NCBI GenBank assembly: GCA_000002445.1
Contig: CM000208.1
Span: 3,968,001 to 4,032,000 of the forward strand
Source of the DNA: Trypanosoma brucei
Lineage: Eukaryota
Length of the DNA stretch: 64,000 bases
Direction: 5' to 3'
This document shows positions 53,201 through 59,200 of this stretch, piece after piece (positions within the stretch are counted from its first letter, which is position 1; every line of letters starts with the position of its first letter). The position numbers were made by a program.

Positions 53201-56200
53201 GGCGATTAATCAACTTCAAACCGTTGATGAGCCGGCAAGCGCCAAAACGACTGTAAGGCCCTACGTAGAACTTTGGAAGGCGTTCAAGCAACTGACAAAC
53301 TGCGAAGCGATGTTCAGCGCGGCGTACACACTGCCAACAGCGGAAGCATTAGTGGACAGCCCGGAAGTCAAAACGGCAATAAAGAATCACTTCCTACGAA
53401 AAGAAGGCCAGTATGAAGACAGTAAAGACAGCAAGGACGTCAACCCGATAGTAAAGCGTTTGTATAAACCAGACGATGAACACTATCCCAAAAAGTTCTG
53501 GCAGGAAACCGCCAAAAAGGACACACCCCAAGCAGCCACTGGGAAAGCAGAGCTTTCTAAACTAGACGACATAGTGACTGAAGAAGAGTTAGCCCAGGTT
53601 CTGAGCTATTACACAAACATGCAGATCCAAAATTTACACAAAGAACTAAAAGAAGCTCAAGAAAAAGCCTCACAGGCGAACCAGAGCGACGCTGCAGCCA
53701 AAGCAGCAGAAGACGCTTGCAATAAACTAGATAACGAAGAAAAATGCAACAACGAGAAAAAGTGCAGTTATGACGATTCTAAGGAAAGTGGCAAAAAGTG
53801 CAAATATAATGCCACAAAAGCAAAATCAAAAGTAAATGGTGTCCCTGTAACACAAACTCAAGATGGAGGAGCAATAACTGTAAACTGTGGCCAACATGCC
53901 GACAAGACTAAATGTGAGGAAAAAACAAGGGAAAAACAACCCCTGTTTGTGTATGGAGAAAAGGCAAAGAGGGTGAACCTGATCAAGATAAAGAAATGTG
54001 CCGAAATGGTAGTTTCGTCAATAAAAAATTTACTCTGATTGCTGCTGTCTTTATGAGTTTTGTATGCTTTTATAATTCAAGCGTTTTGCGTATTTTTGCT
54101 CAATTTTGTGGAATTTATGAAGTTTGATATACTTTAACGCTTTTGTAAAGCTTTTGAAAAATATGAAATTTTTAAAATATTGTGGCTTATGAGTATAAAG
54201 TAGTAGAGTGATATGGTATGAAAGATGGGTAAAATTCTAAATTTTTCATATTTTGTTTATTGTAGGGATGTTGCTTAAGGTCATTGTAGGAATAATGATG
54301 ATGATAAGATAGTTGTGAGTGTGTATATATACGAATTTTATGATAGGAGCAGTAATAATGATAATAATGATAATAATAATAGTGATAATAATAATAGGAG
54401 AGTGTTGTGAGTGTGTATATATACGGATATTATAATAAGAGCAATGATGGCAGAGAAAAAATTTACAGTCTAATTAGAGGCATTAAACAATGATAAGAGT
54501 GTAGTAGGAAGAAGTGAGTGACACAGAATGTCCAGTAGCGGATAATAATATCACTTTAGAGGTAATAACTAAAGGAGAGCGGAATACAGCTACTTTAACA
54601 GTAGAGATAAAACATGAACCAATAACATGAAGTAATATTCGTCCACTATCATGAAAAGACGCAGGCCAAAAGGTAGGAGCCTCTGTATCTACTTCCTTGT
54701 ACGTAACGGCAGAAACTCAGATGGTACTGATAAAAGGTAAAGGAAAATGTGTCCCTAAAAAGGTAAGAAAACGCAAATAAATTAACGGAAGATCTTTAAG
54801 AAGTGTGGTAAATTAATTAAGATATCCAATCAATTTCGTATAAGTATAAACACCAGACATTAATACATTTGTTGAAGAAAATAACCCATGTAAAAGTTTT
54901 TGTTGATACGAAGCTGAAATAATGATTGATAAACAAAACGGTAAAAAAATACTTTGTGGTTCAAAAATTAAACGTATTAAAAGTCATAAAACTAAACTGA
55001 CGTCATATAATCACAAACGGAAACAATAAGTCGATAGGGTCTTCCAGAAAGAGAAGTGTTACCTTGTTATTCTTAGTCAAACCGAACCTTCAAATTAAAA
55101 GAAGATAGAAGAAAGTGAGAACCTCAAATTTAGATGCAATAGATGCAGATAGAAAGATGTGGCTTAAAAAATCTCAATATTGTTGAAGATAAAATCTCGC
55201 TCATAGTTGCAATTCTTCTCATGAAGTTTTTGTTTTGCATCTGCACTTGATGTTCCGTCTGGGAGCTCATCTGATATTCCCACTTTTTCTCATCCTCACA
55301 CGTTGGGCGACTAAATTCTGAAAGAACGACCATATACAGCCTAAGACAAAAACCTTTCAAGATGACGGCACTTCGAACAGCAGCCGTTTGTGTTATTGTA
55401 TTACTATCCATGCGACCCGGAAGTGATGGGGCAGGCCAAGCCGGTTTGCTCAAAACGGTGTGGCAACCAGTATGCGGACTTTCAGAAGAACTAGATGTTG
55501 TCGGCGGAAATAGCCTGCGAATAATAGATGACATACTCTCCGCGGCAACAAACCAAACCAACACCGCGATTCGCTTGCGCATCTACGCCCTAAAAAACAT
55601 TGAGGAGAAGCCTGTCAAGGAGATCAGTGCTTTAGCGTCCTACTATGCCGCGCGCGGCCACGCAGCGATAATGGACATGCAAGCTACAGAGTTAGCAAAA
55701 CATATAGCCGCGGTGCGGTCAGCCACATACCTGAAGGGCAGAATCGACGAAGGGATAAACATGCTAGAACAGGTCAAAGGTGGGCAAAACGGCTGCCTAG
55801 TCGCCACCGCAGCTGACGACACCACCGAGGTCAGAACAGGGACAAGGATAGGAGGCGTCGAATGCAAGCTGAAGCTGAGCGAACTTTCCAAGACAACATG
55901 GAGCAAAGCCAACATCGACGAAACCGGCTACCCAAACTTAAAGGAAGGAGGAACAACGTCGGGAACTGCCGTCCAGCCAACCGATAGCAACAACGTGTGC
56001 CGGCTGTTACACCACTCGAGCGCACATGGCCTAGGCAACAGTGCAAACCTAGACACCGCAGTCAAGAGCCTCGCCGGCTACATAACAACGGGCGCGACTG
56101 CAGCGCCAACACTAGCAGCAAGGGCAAGCTTAACAACAACTAAAACAAGCGCCACAGGCGCGTGGGTCGACGCCTACGAACGCGCCGGCAAATATCGGCC

Positions 56201-59200
56201 GAAATTAAACACAGAGTACTCAAGCGATACGAGCCCCCTGGACAAGCGCCCAGATTTAGTAAAAGCCGTACGTTCAACGGAAACAAAACTTGAAGGTGAA
56301 GGTGAAGAACCAGCAGCAAAGCTAGTAACAGCTTATTTTGGGGGCACAGAACCAAATAAACTAGACGCTTTCCTGAAACTCGTCGAACAAGACAAGATAC
56401 CCAAAGGCATCGCCGGGTTACAAAAAGACACTTTCATCGGGCAGATCACAAACACCGAGCAACTAAACCAAATTCTTTCTTATTATGTGTACCATGCCAG
56501 CCTCAACTATAATGCACTGCAGAAAAAACTAGATGAAGCAACAAAGAAAAAAGACACAAAAGCAGCGGAAGATACCTGCAACAAAATAAAGGATGAAACA
56601 GCCTGCAGCAACAAGCCTTTTTGCACCTATAACACAACAGAAACCGACGAAAATAAAAAGTGCAAATTTGATGAAACAAAAGCAAAATCAAAAGTAAATG
56701 GTGTCCCTGTAACACAAACTCAAGATGGAGGAGCAATAACTGTAAACTGTGGCCAACATGCCGACAAGACTAAATGTGAGGAAAAAACAAGGGAAAAACA
56801 ACCCCTGTTTGTGTATGGAGAAAAGGCAAAGAGGGTGAACCTGATCAAGATAAAGAAATGTGCCGAAATGGTAGTTTCGTCAATAAAAAATTTACTCTGA
56901 TTGCTGCTGTCTTTATGAGTTTTGTATGCTTTTATAATTCAAGCGTTTTGCGTATTTTTGCTCAATTTTGTGGAATTTATGAAGTTTGATATACTTTAAC
57001 GCTTTTGTAAAGCTTTTGAAAAATATGAAATTTTTAAAATATTGTGGCTTATGAGTATAAAGTAGTAGAGTGATATGGTATGAAAGATGGGTAAAATTCT
57101 AAATTTTTCATATTTTGTTTATTGTAGGGATGTTGCTTAAGGTCATTGTAGGAATAATGATGATGATAAGATAGTTGTGAGTGTGTATATATACGAATAA
57201 TATAATAAGAGCAATGATGGTGTATAATAACTACAAACCTAAGAGAAAGGCACTTAAAACAGTGGCAAAGTGAAATGGGAGTACATAATGGAGTCAAATA
57301 GAATACAAGAAATATTATTATTTAAAAGTTGCAGAAACGGAAAGTAAAGATGATAGAATGTGGTCATGTTAAAACATATACGGGACTATTGCATCATGAT
57401 ATCGACAGACTTGATGAAGGGTACAATTAAGGAAAGAGTGAGTCCAGTATAGAATTATAATGCAGGCGCTACTTAATCATTAGTAATATAAGCATAAGAA
57501 AAGAGGAAGAAACATAATATGGAATGAGACAATGCAATTAGCAAAAGCACAACGCAGAAAGAAAATTGTACAGGGGGAGATTGTGCTCCACATTTCACAC
57601 ACAAATGGATAGATGCAATTTCGGAAATGGTGGAGGCAGTGGTGTTCAACTTTATTGTGCAGTAACATGTCAAACATTAAACTCAGGTAGCTGAAAATGA
57701 TGGCCTGCACATGGGTGTTTTCCATAAAAGCAGAAAATCAGGAGCTCTAGAGTCCATTTGTTACCTGATTGTGAGTGTTTAGTTAGAGTGCTTCAAACGA
57801 ATGTAAATTTTAATTTGAGGTGTAAAGAATACCGTGCCAGAGGAAATGGCAAATCACAAACAAAAAACATCAAAATGACTTACTTGGTTAACCATAATGA
57901 ACTCAACTTTAACTGTCACTTTGGTAAGTGGACCTAAATCAAAGTCAATTACCAGGTTCATCAGCGGATTTTGACGGAACATAAAATTCTGCTTTCAGTG
58001 GCCTTGACAACCTTAGTAGCACCGCGCAGAGGTTACGGGGACGACGTTGCGGTGTTGCAAAAGGAACAGGTGGAGCAGCTGTGCAGCCTAGCAACGGAGC
58101 TGGCAGCGTACCATGCGTTATACATCTCAGACTTTGTCGGACACGTTAGAGATGAGTAGAAAATTCAGCGCACGGAGCTCAAGTTCAGAATATATGCAGC
58201 CCAACGCAGCGCAGAAGAGGCGAAGCTGATGCTTTCAATAATGGTTGCGTGCACAAAAAAGTGCAAAGGTAGCTTATCTTTTCTCATGATGACGATCAAG
58301 CCTGGCTTCAAAGCGTTTGATGCCAGTTCATACCTGTCGGGAAGAATAATGGAAAGCCTAGAATTTTTAGCAGAACTTCATCAAGACGGTGGCACGGGCA
58401 ATTCTGCCGGATGTCTGTCAGAAAGCAACTCAAAAGTAATTGAAGGCAAAGCTAATCTACGAGGATGTCCAAAAGGAAGCCGAAAAATAACCAGCGTTGC
58501 GAAACAGCCTTCAGCGCACCTTACAGCTAAAGGATTCATAAACCTGCCAACAGCTGTAAGCAGCAGTAACCACCAAATGCGATATAGTAGGCACGCAAAG
58601 CGGCAACAGTGCTTAACGCAGCGCAGGTGACAAATGGCGCAACACTACTAGCAGGGTACGTCCACCTAGGCAAAACAGCCAGACATATGGCGTAACAGAC
58701 CTAAGCAACTTACAGGCTAACGGCAAAGCAAATGACGCGCCTCATTTTCAAACGGCATACGACAAGCACAAGGCCTACACACCCATATCCAAAGCACCCT
58801 GCGATATCGCGGAATTTTCAGTAGCGGACATAGTAGAGGATGAAACAGCCACACAACTCTTCGCCGAGCTACTAATGAATAAAACCAGCAAAGTCACTGG
58901 CTCCGACGCACAGGCAATCAAACAAAAAATAGAGAAAACCTACAACAAGAGCAATGACTTCCAAAAACACTGGGTCTAGAAGGAAACAAAAAATAAAGTG
59001 CCCAAAGAGGCAGCCAGAGAACAAGGAAGCGGCCAACTCAACCTCGAATCGGACGACGACATAGATAAGCTTCGGAGAATATTAAACTGTTATAGCGCAC
59101 AAGCAATAAAGAGGGAACTGATGGCAGCAGCGGCAGGGACAGGAAGCAATCCATCTTGCACATCCGATACAGAGGCAAGCAAAAAAGCGTCTTCCAAGGA

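What the first reader, a model, noticed from the sequence alone, without database searches (positions are those of the whole stretch)
53814..57198. Two different neighbouring VSGs share an identical 523-bp 3' module (last 75 codons, 3'UTR and first 70-bp unit), including the same late frameshift.
VSGs at 52428 and 55362 have unrelated type B N-domains. From ...TKAKSKVNGVPVTQTQDGG onward they are 100% identical, through the stop and UTR into the downstream 70-bp repeat. Both have the GPI-signal tail (CRNGSFVNKKFTLIAAVFMSFVCF) displaced into the -1 frame. The 3'-end donation therefore copied a defective C-terminus between neighbours. This is consistent with recombination using 3'UTR or C-domain homology as the downstream boundary.
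Basis: seen in the sequence. Interest (0 to 1): 0.6.

Follow-up and report, generated by a model that had tools for sequence, protein, structure and literature searches.

The report
Shared broken tail of neighbouring VSGs
Two adjacent silent surface-coat (VSG) genes of Trypanosoma brucei TREU927 carry an identical, already damaged 3' end that recombination placed behind two different N-terminal domains, which is an ordinary outcome of how this gene archive evolves.

Summary
The core observation holds exactly. Window 53814-54336 and 56676-57198 are 523/523 identical. DNA identity just upstream is about 50%. The tract ends inside the first 70-bp repeat unit.

The GPI-signal tail lies in the -1 frame in both copies. 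Adding one A to the A6 run at 53920-53925 raises the Pfam VSG C-domain score from 46 to 80 bits. It also restores colinearity with intact VSGs such as Lister 427 VSG-343.

There is a second shared lesion: the tail frame has no stop at the usual position.

- Both N-domains are type A, not type B.
- The junctions are the linker between the two C-domain subdomains and the 70-bp repeat. The 3'UTR is not a junction.

Both ORFs are exact GenBank proteins of T. b. brucei TREU927 (EAN78980.1 and EAN78981.1).

Best reading: homologous recombination within a silent subtelomeric array put one pre-damaged 3' module behind two N-domains. VSG1 is probably the chimera. I cannot separate a short 3' patch conversion from a tandem duplication followed by cassette replacement.

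A neighbouring cassette pair (43.3-51.0 kb) shows the same identical-3'-end pattern. This is a known kind of event and interest is low.

The parts
52440..54038 (+). VSG1 ORF (532 aa from the ATG). It has an intact type A N-domain and first C-domain subdomain (S1), then the shared damaged module. It equals GenBank EAN78980.1 / XP_828092.1 of T. b. brucei TREU927.
   Evidence: PF00913, 316 bits, profile positions 1-367/367; exact look-up.
55362..56900 (+). VSG2 ORF (512 aa). It has an intact type A N-domain and S1, then the shared damaged module. It equals GenBank EAN78981.1 / XP_828093.1 of TREU927.
   Evidence: PF00913, 343.7 bits; P0001, 100% identical.
53814..54336 (+). Shared 3' module, copy 1. 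It holds the inter-subdomain linker, the second C-domain subdomain (S2), the GPI-signal region, the 3'UTR, intergenic DNA and the 5' part of a 70-bp unit.
   Evidence: 523/523 identity to 56676-57198.
56676..57198 (+). Shared 3' module, copy 2.
53793..53813 (+). Left junction patch (copy 2: 56655-56675). It is 17/21 identical and begins with the 13-nt perfect stretch AAAAAGTGCAAAT. It encodes KKCK[Y/F] plus the start of the linker, a segment conserved across C-domains.
   Evidence: 53793-53869 is 76.6% identical to 38427-38497 in an unrelated VSG.
53920..53925 (+). A6 run, the inferred site of a 1-nt deletion from A7 that moves the reading frame (copy 2: 56782-56787). It lies inside an imperfect 11-nt tandem repeat, AGGAAAAAACA/AGGGAAAAACA, at 53917-53939.
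   Evidence: The last stop in the tail frame is the TGA at 53915-53917. Repair gives CEEKNKGKTTPVCVW, which matches CEEENKGKSSPVCGW in P0153 and CEAENTGKSSPVCGW in P0063. PF10659 rises from 46.4 to 79.9 bits. Tandem repeat.
53999..54070 (+). GPI-signal-type tail CRNGSFVNKKFTLIAAVFMSFVCF, in the -1 frame relative to the ORF (copy 2: 56861-56932).
54071..54073 (+). TAT codon where relatives have their stop codon. This is the second shared lesion. The tail frame reads 18 more codons to the TGA at 54125-54127. A TAA at 54073-54075, homologous to a neighbour's stop, is in the third frame (copy 2: 56933-56935).
54125..54140 (+). VSG 3'UTR 16-mer-like element TGATATACTTTAACGC, with 2 mismatches to the consensus (copy 2: 56987-57002).
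   Evidence: 13 matches in the window against 1.4 expected by chance.
54291..54450 (+). 70-bp repeat tract downstream of VSG1, with two units. Perfect identity to copy 2 ends at 54336, inside unit 1. The 3' end of unit 2 carries the private variant GAGCAATGATGG, also seen after VSG2.
57153..57220 (+). 70-bp repeat downstream of VSG2, a single unit. Its 5' part equals unit 1 of copy 1. Its 3' 25 nt match unit 2 of copy 1 at 23/25, against 17/25 for unit 1. All similarity ends after this unit.
43331..51013 (+). Context: a tandem duplication of a whole VSG cassette (43331-47146 and 47194-51013) with ends in 70-bp repeats. Differences are concentrated in the N-domain. There is a 586-nt perfect run from the C-domain end to the 70-bp repeat (46540-47125).

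Best explanation
This is a stretch of a silent subtelomeric VSG array of Trypanosoma brucei brucei TREU927.

One 3' module runs from the linker after the first C-domain subdomain, through the second subdomain, the GPI-signal region and the 3'UTR, to the next 70-bp repeat. It already carried two small lesions: a 1-nt loss in an A7 run and loss of the in-frame stop. Homologous recombination (gene conversion) between array cassettes then placed it behind two different type A N-domains.

The two junctions sit where unrelated VSG cassettes still share sequence: the conserved KKCK..TKA patch of the C-domain and the 70-bp repeat.

The module is probably native to the VSG2-type C-domain, which makes VSG1 the chimera.

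Two histories give the same product and cannot be separated here:
(a) Tandem duplication of a VSG2-like cassette, followed by a canonical cassette conversion (70-bp repeat to C-domain) that replaced the upstream copy's N-part with VSG1.
(b) A short (0.5-0.66 kb) patch conversion from VSG2's 3' end into VSG1.

Consequence, by inference: neither gene can produce a GPI-anchored coat protein as it stands. Both keep complete N-domain ORFs, so they remain usable as donors if the downstream crossover falls 5' of 53920. That is where expressed-VSG crossovers usually fall.

Shown: the identity, the junction positions, both lesions, the N-domain type and the source genome. Inferred: the recombination mechanism, its direction, the order of events, and that the frameshift is biological.
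For: - Exact 523-nt identity with a sharp step from 50% to 100%.
- No other DNA similarity between the two cassettes apart from the 70-bp units.
- N-domains are about 25% identical.
- Other VSG 3' ends in the window match the module at only 68-77%.
- The right edge lies inside the 70-bp repeat. The three units after VSG1 and VSG2 share private variants that are absent from the other 14 units in the window.
- Both lesions are identical in both copies.
- The ancestral frame is supported by a Pfam gain of 33.5 bits on repair, and by colinearity with the intact C-domains of ORF 37653-38657, Lister 427 VSG-343 and TREU927 CAJ16406.1.
- Direction: VSGs with a module-like S2 have an S1 like VSG2's (89% and 55% identity) rather than VSG1's (43%). 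VSGs with a VSG1-like S1 have an unrelated S2 (29-33%).
- Local precedent: the cassette pair immediately upstream is a tandem duplication ending in 70-bp repeats, with a 586-nt perfect 3' run.
- Sequence quality: 32 homopolymer runs of 5 nt or more in 2.7 kb of that duplication have equal lengths in both copies. The source is the TREU927 reference record; that this record is Sanger-based is my own recollection, not a tool result.
- Literature: gene conversion among subtelomeric VSGs is frequent (PMC2854126). The archive evolves by whole-gene duplication plus mutation and conversion (PMC3472502). Ends of identity usually fall in the C-domain (18 of 22 cases; PMC1934917). 3' donors show local homology at the boundary (PMC3708902). 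70-bp repeats supply recombination homology (PMC4858185).
Against: - No reads and no second assembly could be examined. The perfection of the identity and the two 1-nt lesions therefore rest on a single consensus sequence.
- Both inferred lesions are compatible with single-base losses in homopolymer runs (A7 to A6, possibly T5 to T4). That is also what a base-calling error looks like.
- The direction inference uses a hit list collected with VSG2 as the query, and VSG C-domains are widely mosaic. For example, P0153 is 89% identical to VSG2 in S1 but only about 61% in the module.
- The module is not demonstrably younger than the neighbouring duplication. That pair's flanks differ at 14 of 2676 sites, which gives P of about 0.07 for zero differences in 523 nt.
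Confidence: 0.85

Rival explanations
1. The module sharing is real, but the frameshift (and perhaps the missing stop) is a consensus base-calling error in homopolymer runs. In that case both genes would carry an intact C-domain with a GPI signal.
For: The shift maps to an A6 run inside a low-complexity 11-nt repeat. Adding one T to the T4 run at 54067-54070 would restore a stop (CFL*), read directly from the sequence. Indel errors that break ORFs are documented for long-read T. brucei assemblies (PMC8445201).
Against: The sequence is the TREU927 reference record, which to my knowledge was Sanger-sequenced, not a long-read assembly. In 2.7 kb of near-identical duplicate DNA nearby, none of 32 homopolymer runs of 5 nt or more differs in length. 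Two independent errors would each have to occur identically in both copies. Disrupted VSGs are the norm: only about 7% are intact in TREU927 (PMC1934917), and 346 of 2634 subtelomeric VSGs are functional in Lister 427. Other VSGs of this C-domain subtype also lack a proper tail (P0042 and P0154).
Confidence: 0.1
2. The perfect identity is an assembly or consensus artefact. On this view two similar but distinct 3' ends were collapsed or homogenised, or one gene's 3' end was mis-joined.
For: VSG arrays are repetitive and hard to assemble (PMC2854126). No reads were available to me.
Against: A 523-nt repeat with unique sequence on both sides and 2.9 kb spacing is within reach of single Sanger reads and clone mates. 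Both edges fall at biologically sensible homology patches rather than arbitrary positions. The repeat tracts downstream differ by one unit, and the two loci then continue into different unique DNA. The neighbouring pair shows the same pattern independently.
Confidence: 0.04
3. The identity reflects strong purifying selection on a functional 3' element (C-domain, 3'UTR regulatory motifs) rather than recent copying.
For: VSG 3'UTRs contain conserved motifs, and the 16-mer is enriched in the window.
Against: Other VSG 3' ends in the same window are only 68-77% identical to the module, and over short stretches. The identity covers third codon positions, a frameshifted reading frame and about 150 nt of intergenic DNA beyond the 16-mer. 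Selection does not produce a step from 50% to 100% at a single nucleotide.
Confidence: 0.01

Closest known systems
3' donation / segmental gene conversion of expressed VSGs (Hall, Wang & Barry 2013, PMC3708902)
   Same: An abrupt switch of donor occurs within the C-domain-coding region, between genes that are otherwise very dissimilar. There is short local homology at the boundary. The result is an N-domain combined with a foreign C-terminus and 3'UTR.
   Different: 3' donation is defined at the active expression site, where the resident C-domain is retained and usually rescues a damaged donor. Here the product sits in a silent array, and the shared module is itself the damaged part. The tract's other end is a 70-bp repeat downstream of the gene.
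Canonical VSG cassette conversion (upstream boundary in the 70-bp repeats, downstream boundary in the C-domain or 3' end)
   Same: The two junctions seen here are exactly these two homology blocks (PMC4858185; PMC1934917).
   Different: What is identical here is the complement of the cassette, running from the C-domain junction to the next 70-bp repeat. The event was array to array, not array to expression site.
High-identity VSG pairs and triplets from whole-gene duplication in the TREU927 archive (Marcello & Barry 2007, as cited in Gjini et al. 2012, PMC3472502)
   Same: Same-strand neighbours with identical flanking DNA. The adjacent pair 43331-47146 / 47194-51013 is a textbook case.
   Different: VSG1 and VSG2 share only the 3' 0.5-0.66 kb. 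Their N-domains are about 25% identical, which is far below the >50% peptide identity that defines those subfamilies.
'Atypical' and pseudogene VSG classes of the TREU927 annotation (Berriman et al. 2005, figures as cited in PMC1934917)
   Same: A complete ORF with a normal N-domain that lacks elements needed for correct C-terminal processing. Both proteins are deposited as 'VSG, putative'.
   Different: None in kind. This is an instance of that class. I could not check how VSGdb classifies these two genes.

Membership tests
T. brucei VSG, type A N-terminal domain | The N-domain matches the A-type profile (Pfam PF00913) over its full length, and the nearest solved structures are class A VSGs. 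| tested here: met
   E 4.5e-94 and 1.9e-102, profile positions 1-367/367 and 1-366/367; best PDB matches are MITat 1.2, MITat 1.1, VSG531 and ILTat 1.24.
   neither protein matches PF13206. The ORF at 3939-5375 in the same window does match it (E 5.9e-66), so the test can detect type B.
T. brucei VSG C-terminal domain with two structured subdomains | Two blocks of four conserved cysteines (PF10659), as described for C-domain types 1, 3 and 6 (PMC12226131). | tested here: met
   This is met only after frame repair. PF10659 then scores 79.9 and 78.0 bits over profile positions 1-104/104, against 46.4 bits as the sequence stands. Cysteines align with intact C-domains.
Functional (intact) VSG gene | A single ORF running from the signal peptide through the C-domain to a hydrophobic GPI-addition signal that is followed directly by a stop codon. 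| tested here: not met
   The tail is in the -1 frame, and the tail frame has no stop at the family position. Whether these lesions are biological could not be tested without reads.
Silent subtelomeric array VSG cassette | VSGs on the same strand, each preceded by one or a few 70-bp repeat units, with a 3'UTR 16-mer. | tested here: met
   There are 17 70-bp core matches, all on the + strand, against 0.09 expected. About 16 VSG-like regions are all on the + strand. There are 16-mer matches. The source is a TREU927 record of 4,054,025 bp.
Gene-conversion / homologous-recombination product | A sharp transition between unrelated and identical sequence, with both edges inside pre-existing homology patches. 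| tested here: met
Gene-conversion / homologous-recombination product | Non-reciprocity, with an identifiable donor left unchanged, and a known direction of transfer. | tested here: inconclusive
   Comparing S1 and S2 across database VSGs suggests the module belongs with a VSG2-type S1. The sample is biased, and no genomic DNA from other loci or strains could be fetched.
3' donation in the strict sense (expression-site event) | It occurs in the active expression site during a switch, and the previously expressed C-domain is retained. | not testable with these tools
   The locus has the anatomy of a silent array. No expression or lineage data were available.

The most novel reading that the evidence does not exclude
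The segment from the C-domain linker to the next 70-bp repeat might be a recurrent unit of exchange within silent arrays, a 'reverse cassette'. In that case 70-bp repeats would act as downstream boundaries as well as upstream ones. VSG 3' ends would then evolve in concert among neighbours, and damaged C-termini would spread. That spread would keep array VSGs dependent on 3' donation or mosaic formation for expression. Two of roughly 15 adjacent pairs in this window show a perfect run of more than 500 nt with exactly these limits.
Probability: 0.15. Interest if true: 0.4.

Novelty: already known. Interest (0 to 1): 0.15.

Why it matters
The pair is a clean example, at single-nucleotide resolution, of how the silent VSG archive is remodelled. 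N-domains and 3' ends have separate histories, exchange happens at the C-domain linker and the 70-bp repeat, and damage in the C-terminus is copied along with it.

It adds no new principle. C-domain swapping, archive duplication and conversion, and the predominance of damaged VSGs are all established (PMC3708902, PMC1934917, PMC3472502, PMC2854126).

The practical value is small:
- The two GenBank proteins (EAN78980.1 and EAN78981.1) are frameshifted at the C-terminus. They should not be treated as intact VSGs.

Tried and rejected
- The search for homologous proteins, queried with the repaired C-domain and with the module peptide as it stands, returned nothing. It did not even find the two proteins that exact look-up later showed to be in the collection. 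The tool is blind for this family, so these negatives say nothing about other carriers of the module.
- The look-up of encoding contigs found no DNA for VSG1, VSG2, Lister 427 VSG-1889 or EATRO1125 VSG-1428. No second strain or assembly could therefore be compared.
- The Lister 427 and EATRO1125 relatives of VSG1 are truncated ORFs (259 and 354 aa) and say nothing about the C-terminus.
- Marcello & Barry 2007 and Weirather et al. 2012 are not held in the paper library. Their content is cited only through other papers.
- I considered using the module's lack of differences to date it as younger than the neighbouring duplication. Against that pair's overall 4.1% divergence this looks compelling. 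Against its flanks (0.52% divergence) P is about 0.07, so I make no age claim.
- I looked for traces that would separate 'short 3' patch conversion' from 'duplication then cassette replacement', using upstream regions and 70-bp unit variants. Both histories fit.
- Rfam found no RNA family in 50-60 kb.
- I did not scan the bacterial, viral or metagenome DNA collections, because they cannot contain this genome.

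
Full report
**What the window is**

All 17 matches to the 70-bp repeat core lie on the + strand, against 0.09 expected by chance. About 16 VSG-like coding regions follow one another on the same strand, and most are broken into several ORFs.

Pfam assigns the tested ORFs to trypanosome VSG N-domains (A-type PF00913 or VSG_B PF13206) and to the VSG C-terminal domain PF10659.

Exact look-up shows that the two ORFs of the finding are GenBank proteins of Trypanosoma brucei brucei TREU927:
- 52440-54038 (532 aa) is EAN78980.1 / XP_828092.1.
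- 55362-56900 (512 aa) is EAN78981.1 / XP_828093.1.

Both are named 'variant surface glycoprotein (VSG), putative' and both lie on a record of 4,054,025 bp. The window is therefore part of a silent subtelomeric VSG array of the reference strain.

**Check of the observation**

Positions 53814-54336 and 56676-57198 are identical at 523 of 523 positions, at an offset of 2862.

- To the left there is a 21-nt patch with 17 matches (53793-53813), which starts with a 13-nt perfect stretch.
- Further left, gapped identity is 79/158, or 50%.
- With a sensitive blastn, the two cassettes share nothing else except 70-bp repeat units.
- The proteins are about 25% identical outside the module (187/530 identities overall, of which 74-75 belong to the module).
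- Other VSG 3' ends in the window match the module at only 68-77%, over 171 nt or less.

The identity is real and far beyond family conservation.

The tract contains the last 74 codons plus the stop of each ORF. It also contains a 3'UTR with a 16-mer-like element at 54125-54140 and 56987-57002, then intergenic DNA. It ends 46 nt into the first 70-bp unit.

**Corrections to the observation**

Both N-domains are type A. PF00913 matches at E 4.5e-94 and 1.9e-102 over the full profile, and there is no VSG_B match, although the VSG at 3939-5375 does match VSG_B. The nearest solved structures are MITat 1.2, MITat 1.1, VSG531 and ILTat 1.24.

The right-hand end is more structured than 'the first 70-bp unit'. 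VSG1 is followed by two units (54291-54450) and VSG2 by one (57153-57220).
- The single unit equals unit 1 of copy 1 up to ...TATATATACGAAT.
- Its last 25 nt then match unit 2 of copy 1 at 23/25, against 17/25 for unit 1.
- That match includes the ending GAGCAATGATGG, which none of the other 14 units in the window has.

Homology therefore runs to the distal edge of the repeat tract with a one-unit length difference. After that the two loci are unrelated.

**The frameshift**

The ORF frame ends ...CEEKTREKQPLFVYGEKAKRVNLIKIKKCAEMVVSSIKNLL*. The -1 frame reads ...KNKGKTTPVCVWRKGKEGEPDQDKEMCRNGSFVNKKFTLIAAVFMSFVCF.

The last stop in the tail frame is the TGA at 53915-53917, so the shift lies just after it.

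Inserting one A into the A6 run at 53920-53925 has three effects:
- The PF10659 score rises from 46.4 to 79.9 bits, and coverage rises to the full profile.
- The four cysteines of the second subdomain are restored.
- The sequence becomes colinear with intact C-domains. These are the ORF at 37653-38657 in this window, Lister 427 VSG-343 (...TVNCASHTDKTKCEAENTGKSSPVCGWRKGKDNEPDQDKEMCRNGSFLVNNQFVLSVVSAAFVALLF) and TREU927 CAJ16406.1 (...KCEEENKGKSSPVCGWRKGKEGETDEPDKEKCRNGSF...).

The family motif CE(E/A)(E/K)N.GK places the lost base in the A-run. That run lies inside an imperfect 11-nt tandem repeat.

**A second shared lesion**

Intact relatives stop directly after the hydrophobic tail. Here the tail is followed by TAT (54071-54073). 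The frame then runs on for 18 codons to the TGA that begins the 16-mer. A TAA that aligns with a neighbour's stop codon sits in the third frame.

**Are the lesions real?**

I could not examine reads. Several points argue against a miscall:
- The record is the TREU927 reference. My own recollection is that it is Sanger-based, not long-read.
- In 2.7 kb of near-identical duplicated DNA nearby, all 32 homopolymer runs of 5 nt or more have the same length in both copies. The three indels in that duplication are not in runs.
- Two lesions would each have to be miscalled identically at two loci.
- Damaged VSGs are the rule. About 7% are intact in TREU927 (PMC1934917), and 346 of 2634 subtelomeric VSGs are functional in Lister 427 (PMC8445201).

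Two points argue the other way. Both lesions can be written as single-base losses in homopolymers, and indel artefacts that break ORFs are documented for T. brucei assemblies. I put about 0.1 on the frameshift being an error.

**What happened**

A step from 50% to 100% identity at one nucleotide, together with identity across a frameshifted frame, a UTR and intergenic DNA, excludes selection. It points to recent copying by homologous recombination.

The left junction is the conserved KKCK[Y/F]..TKA patch, directly after the fourth cysteine of the first subdomain. This is the linker between the two structured C-domain regions (PMC12226131). The patch is 77% identical even to an unrelated VSG in the window. 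The right junction is the 70-bp repeat.

These are the two homology blocks known to bound VSG conversions:
- 70-bp repeats provide recombination homology (PMC4858185).
- In 18 of 22 cases the 3' end of identity between expressed and genomic VSGs falls in the C-domain (PMC1934917).
- 3' donors show short local homology at the boundary (PMC3708902).

Because both copies carry both lesions and no differences, the damage predates the copying.

**Direction**

Among the VSGs retrieved, those whose second subdomain is most like the module have a first subdomain like VSG2's and unlike VSG1's. The TREU927 CAJ16406.1 / Lister 427 VSG-736 cluster is 89% identical to VSG2's S1, and Lister 427 VSG-343 is 55% identical. 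Both are only 43% identical to VSG1's S1.

Conversely, VSGs with a VSG1-like first subdomain have an unrelated second subdomain, at 29-33% identity to the module.

This suggests that the module belongs with the VSG2-type C-domain and that VSG1 is the chimera. The evidence is only suggestive. The hit list was gathered with VSG2 as the query, and C-domains are themselves mosaic.

**Two histories fit equally**

(a) A VSG2-like cassette duplicated in tandem. A canonical cassette conversion (70-bp repeat to C-domain) then overwrote the upstream copy with VSG1's N-part.

(b) A 0.5-0.66 kb patch was copied from VSG2's 3' end into VSG1.

History (a) has a local precedent. The cassettes immediately upstream (43331-47146 and 47194-51013) are a tandem duplication ending in 70-bp repeats, 95.9% identical overall. 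Their differences are concentrated in the N-domain. The 3' part is almost untouched, including a 586-nt perfect run from the C-domain end to the 70-bp repeat.

This matches the published description of archive evolution: duplication, then point mutation, then short imports from third-party donors (PMC3472502).

The module cannot be shown to be younger than that duplication. The duplication's flanks differ at 14 of 2676 sites, which gives P of about 0.07 for zero differences in 523 nt.

**Function (inferred)**

As they stand, neither ORF encodes a GPI-addition signal, so neither can form a coat. Both N-domain ORFs are complete.

A switch or mosaic event whose downstream crossover falls 5' of 53920 would express them with a borrowed C-terminus. 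This is the route described for VSGs with damaged C-domains (PMC3708902).

**Comparison with what is known, and verdict**

Every element is established: independent histories of N- and C-domains, crossovers within the C-domain, 70-bp boundaries, frequent conversion among subtelomeric VSGs (PMC2854126), tandem duplicates, and the predominance of damaged genes.

The genes themselves have been in GenBank since the TREU927 genome was deposited. I could not check whether this particular pair has been singled out in print, because Marcello & Barry 2007 and Weirather et al. 2012 are not held.

The finding is a correct and tidy observation of an ordinary archive event. Novelty: already known. Interest: 0.15.

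The one reading that would raise it has a probability of about 0.15. It is that the stretch from the C-domain linker to the next 70-bp repeat is a recurrent exchange unit that spreads damaged C-termini through arrays. A genome-wide search with the 523-nt module would test it.

Noticed in passing
window 43331-47146 and 47194-51013: A tandem duplication of a whole VSG cassette, from 70-bp repeat to 70-bp repeat, 95.9% identical over 3822 nt. The differences cluster in the N-domain coding part (about 45140-46200): 59 non-synonymous and 31 synonymous codon differences, in patches. The upstream 1.8 kb and the 3' 0.9 kb are nearly identical, with perfect runs of 748 nt and 586 nt. This matches 'duplication, then point mutation and short imports' (PMC3472502).
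   Followed up: partly
window 45784 versus 49651: A 1-nt indel (CAA-GAC versus CAAGGAC, not in a homopolymer run) splits copy A of that duplication into two ORFs (45198-45791 and 45788-46690). Copy B keeps a single 507-codon ORF (49034-50557) with a normal GPI-type tail.
   Followed up: partly
window 40610-42226: This VSG-like ORF reads past its hydrophobic tail into the 3'UTR. An exact copy of the 16-mer TGATATATTTTAACAC (42207-42222) lies inside the ORF. It is a second case in the window of a lost or shifted stop codon at a VSG C-terminus.
   Followed up: no
window 40610-42226 and 49034-50557: Two long VSG-like ORFs, each with a cysteine-rich C-domain and a hydrophobic tail, get no Pfam VSG N-domain match even at E up to 1. 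tblastn and blastp link them weakly to type A VSGs in the window.
   Followed up: partly
window about 1680-1800 and about 25800-26250: Long uninterrupted (TAA)n tracts adjoin 70-bp repeat units. One is about 450 nt long. They are much longer than the triplet runs in the other units of the window.
   Followed up: no
proteins P0152 (Lister 427 VSG-1889, 259 aa) and P0143 (EATRO1125 VSG-1428, 354 aa): The relatives of VSG1 in two other strains, clustered with it at 90% identity, are ORFs truncated at different points within the N-domain. The TREU927 copy has a complete N-domain ORF. The same archive gene is therefore damaged differently in different strains.
   Followed up: partly
proteins P0042 (Lister 427 VSG-736), P0154 (EATRO1125 VSG-1095) and P0153 (TREU927 CAJ16406.1): These VSGs carry the C-domain subtype closest to the module. 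In Lister 427 and EATRO1125 they end prematurely (...GEDEKDTKK, no GPI tail). The TREU927 member continues into CRNGSFLTNKQF.... C-terminal damage recurs in this C-domain subtype.
   Followed up: no
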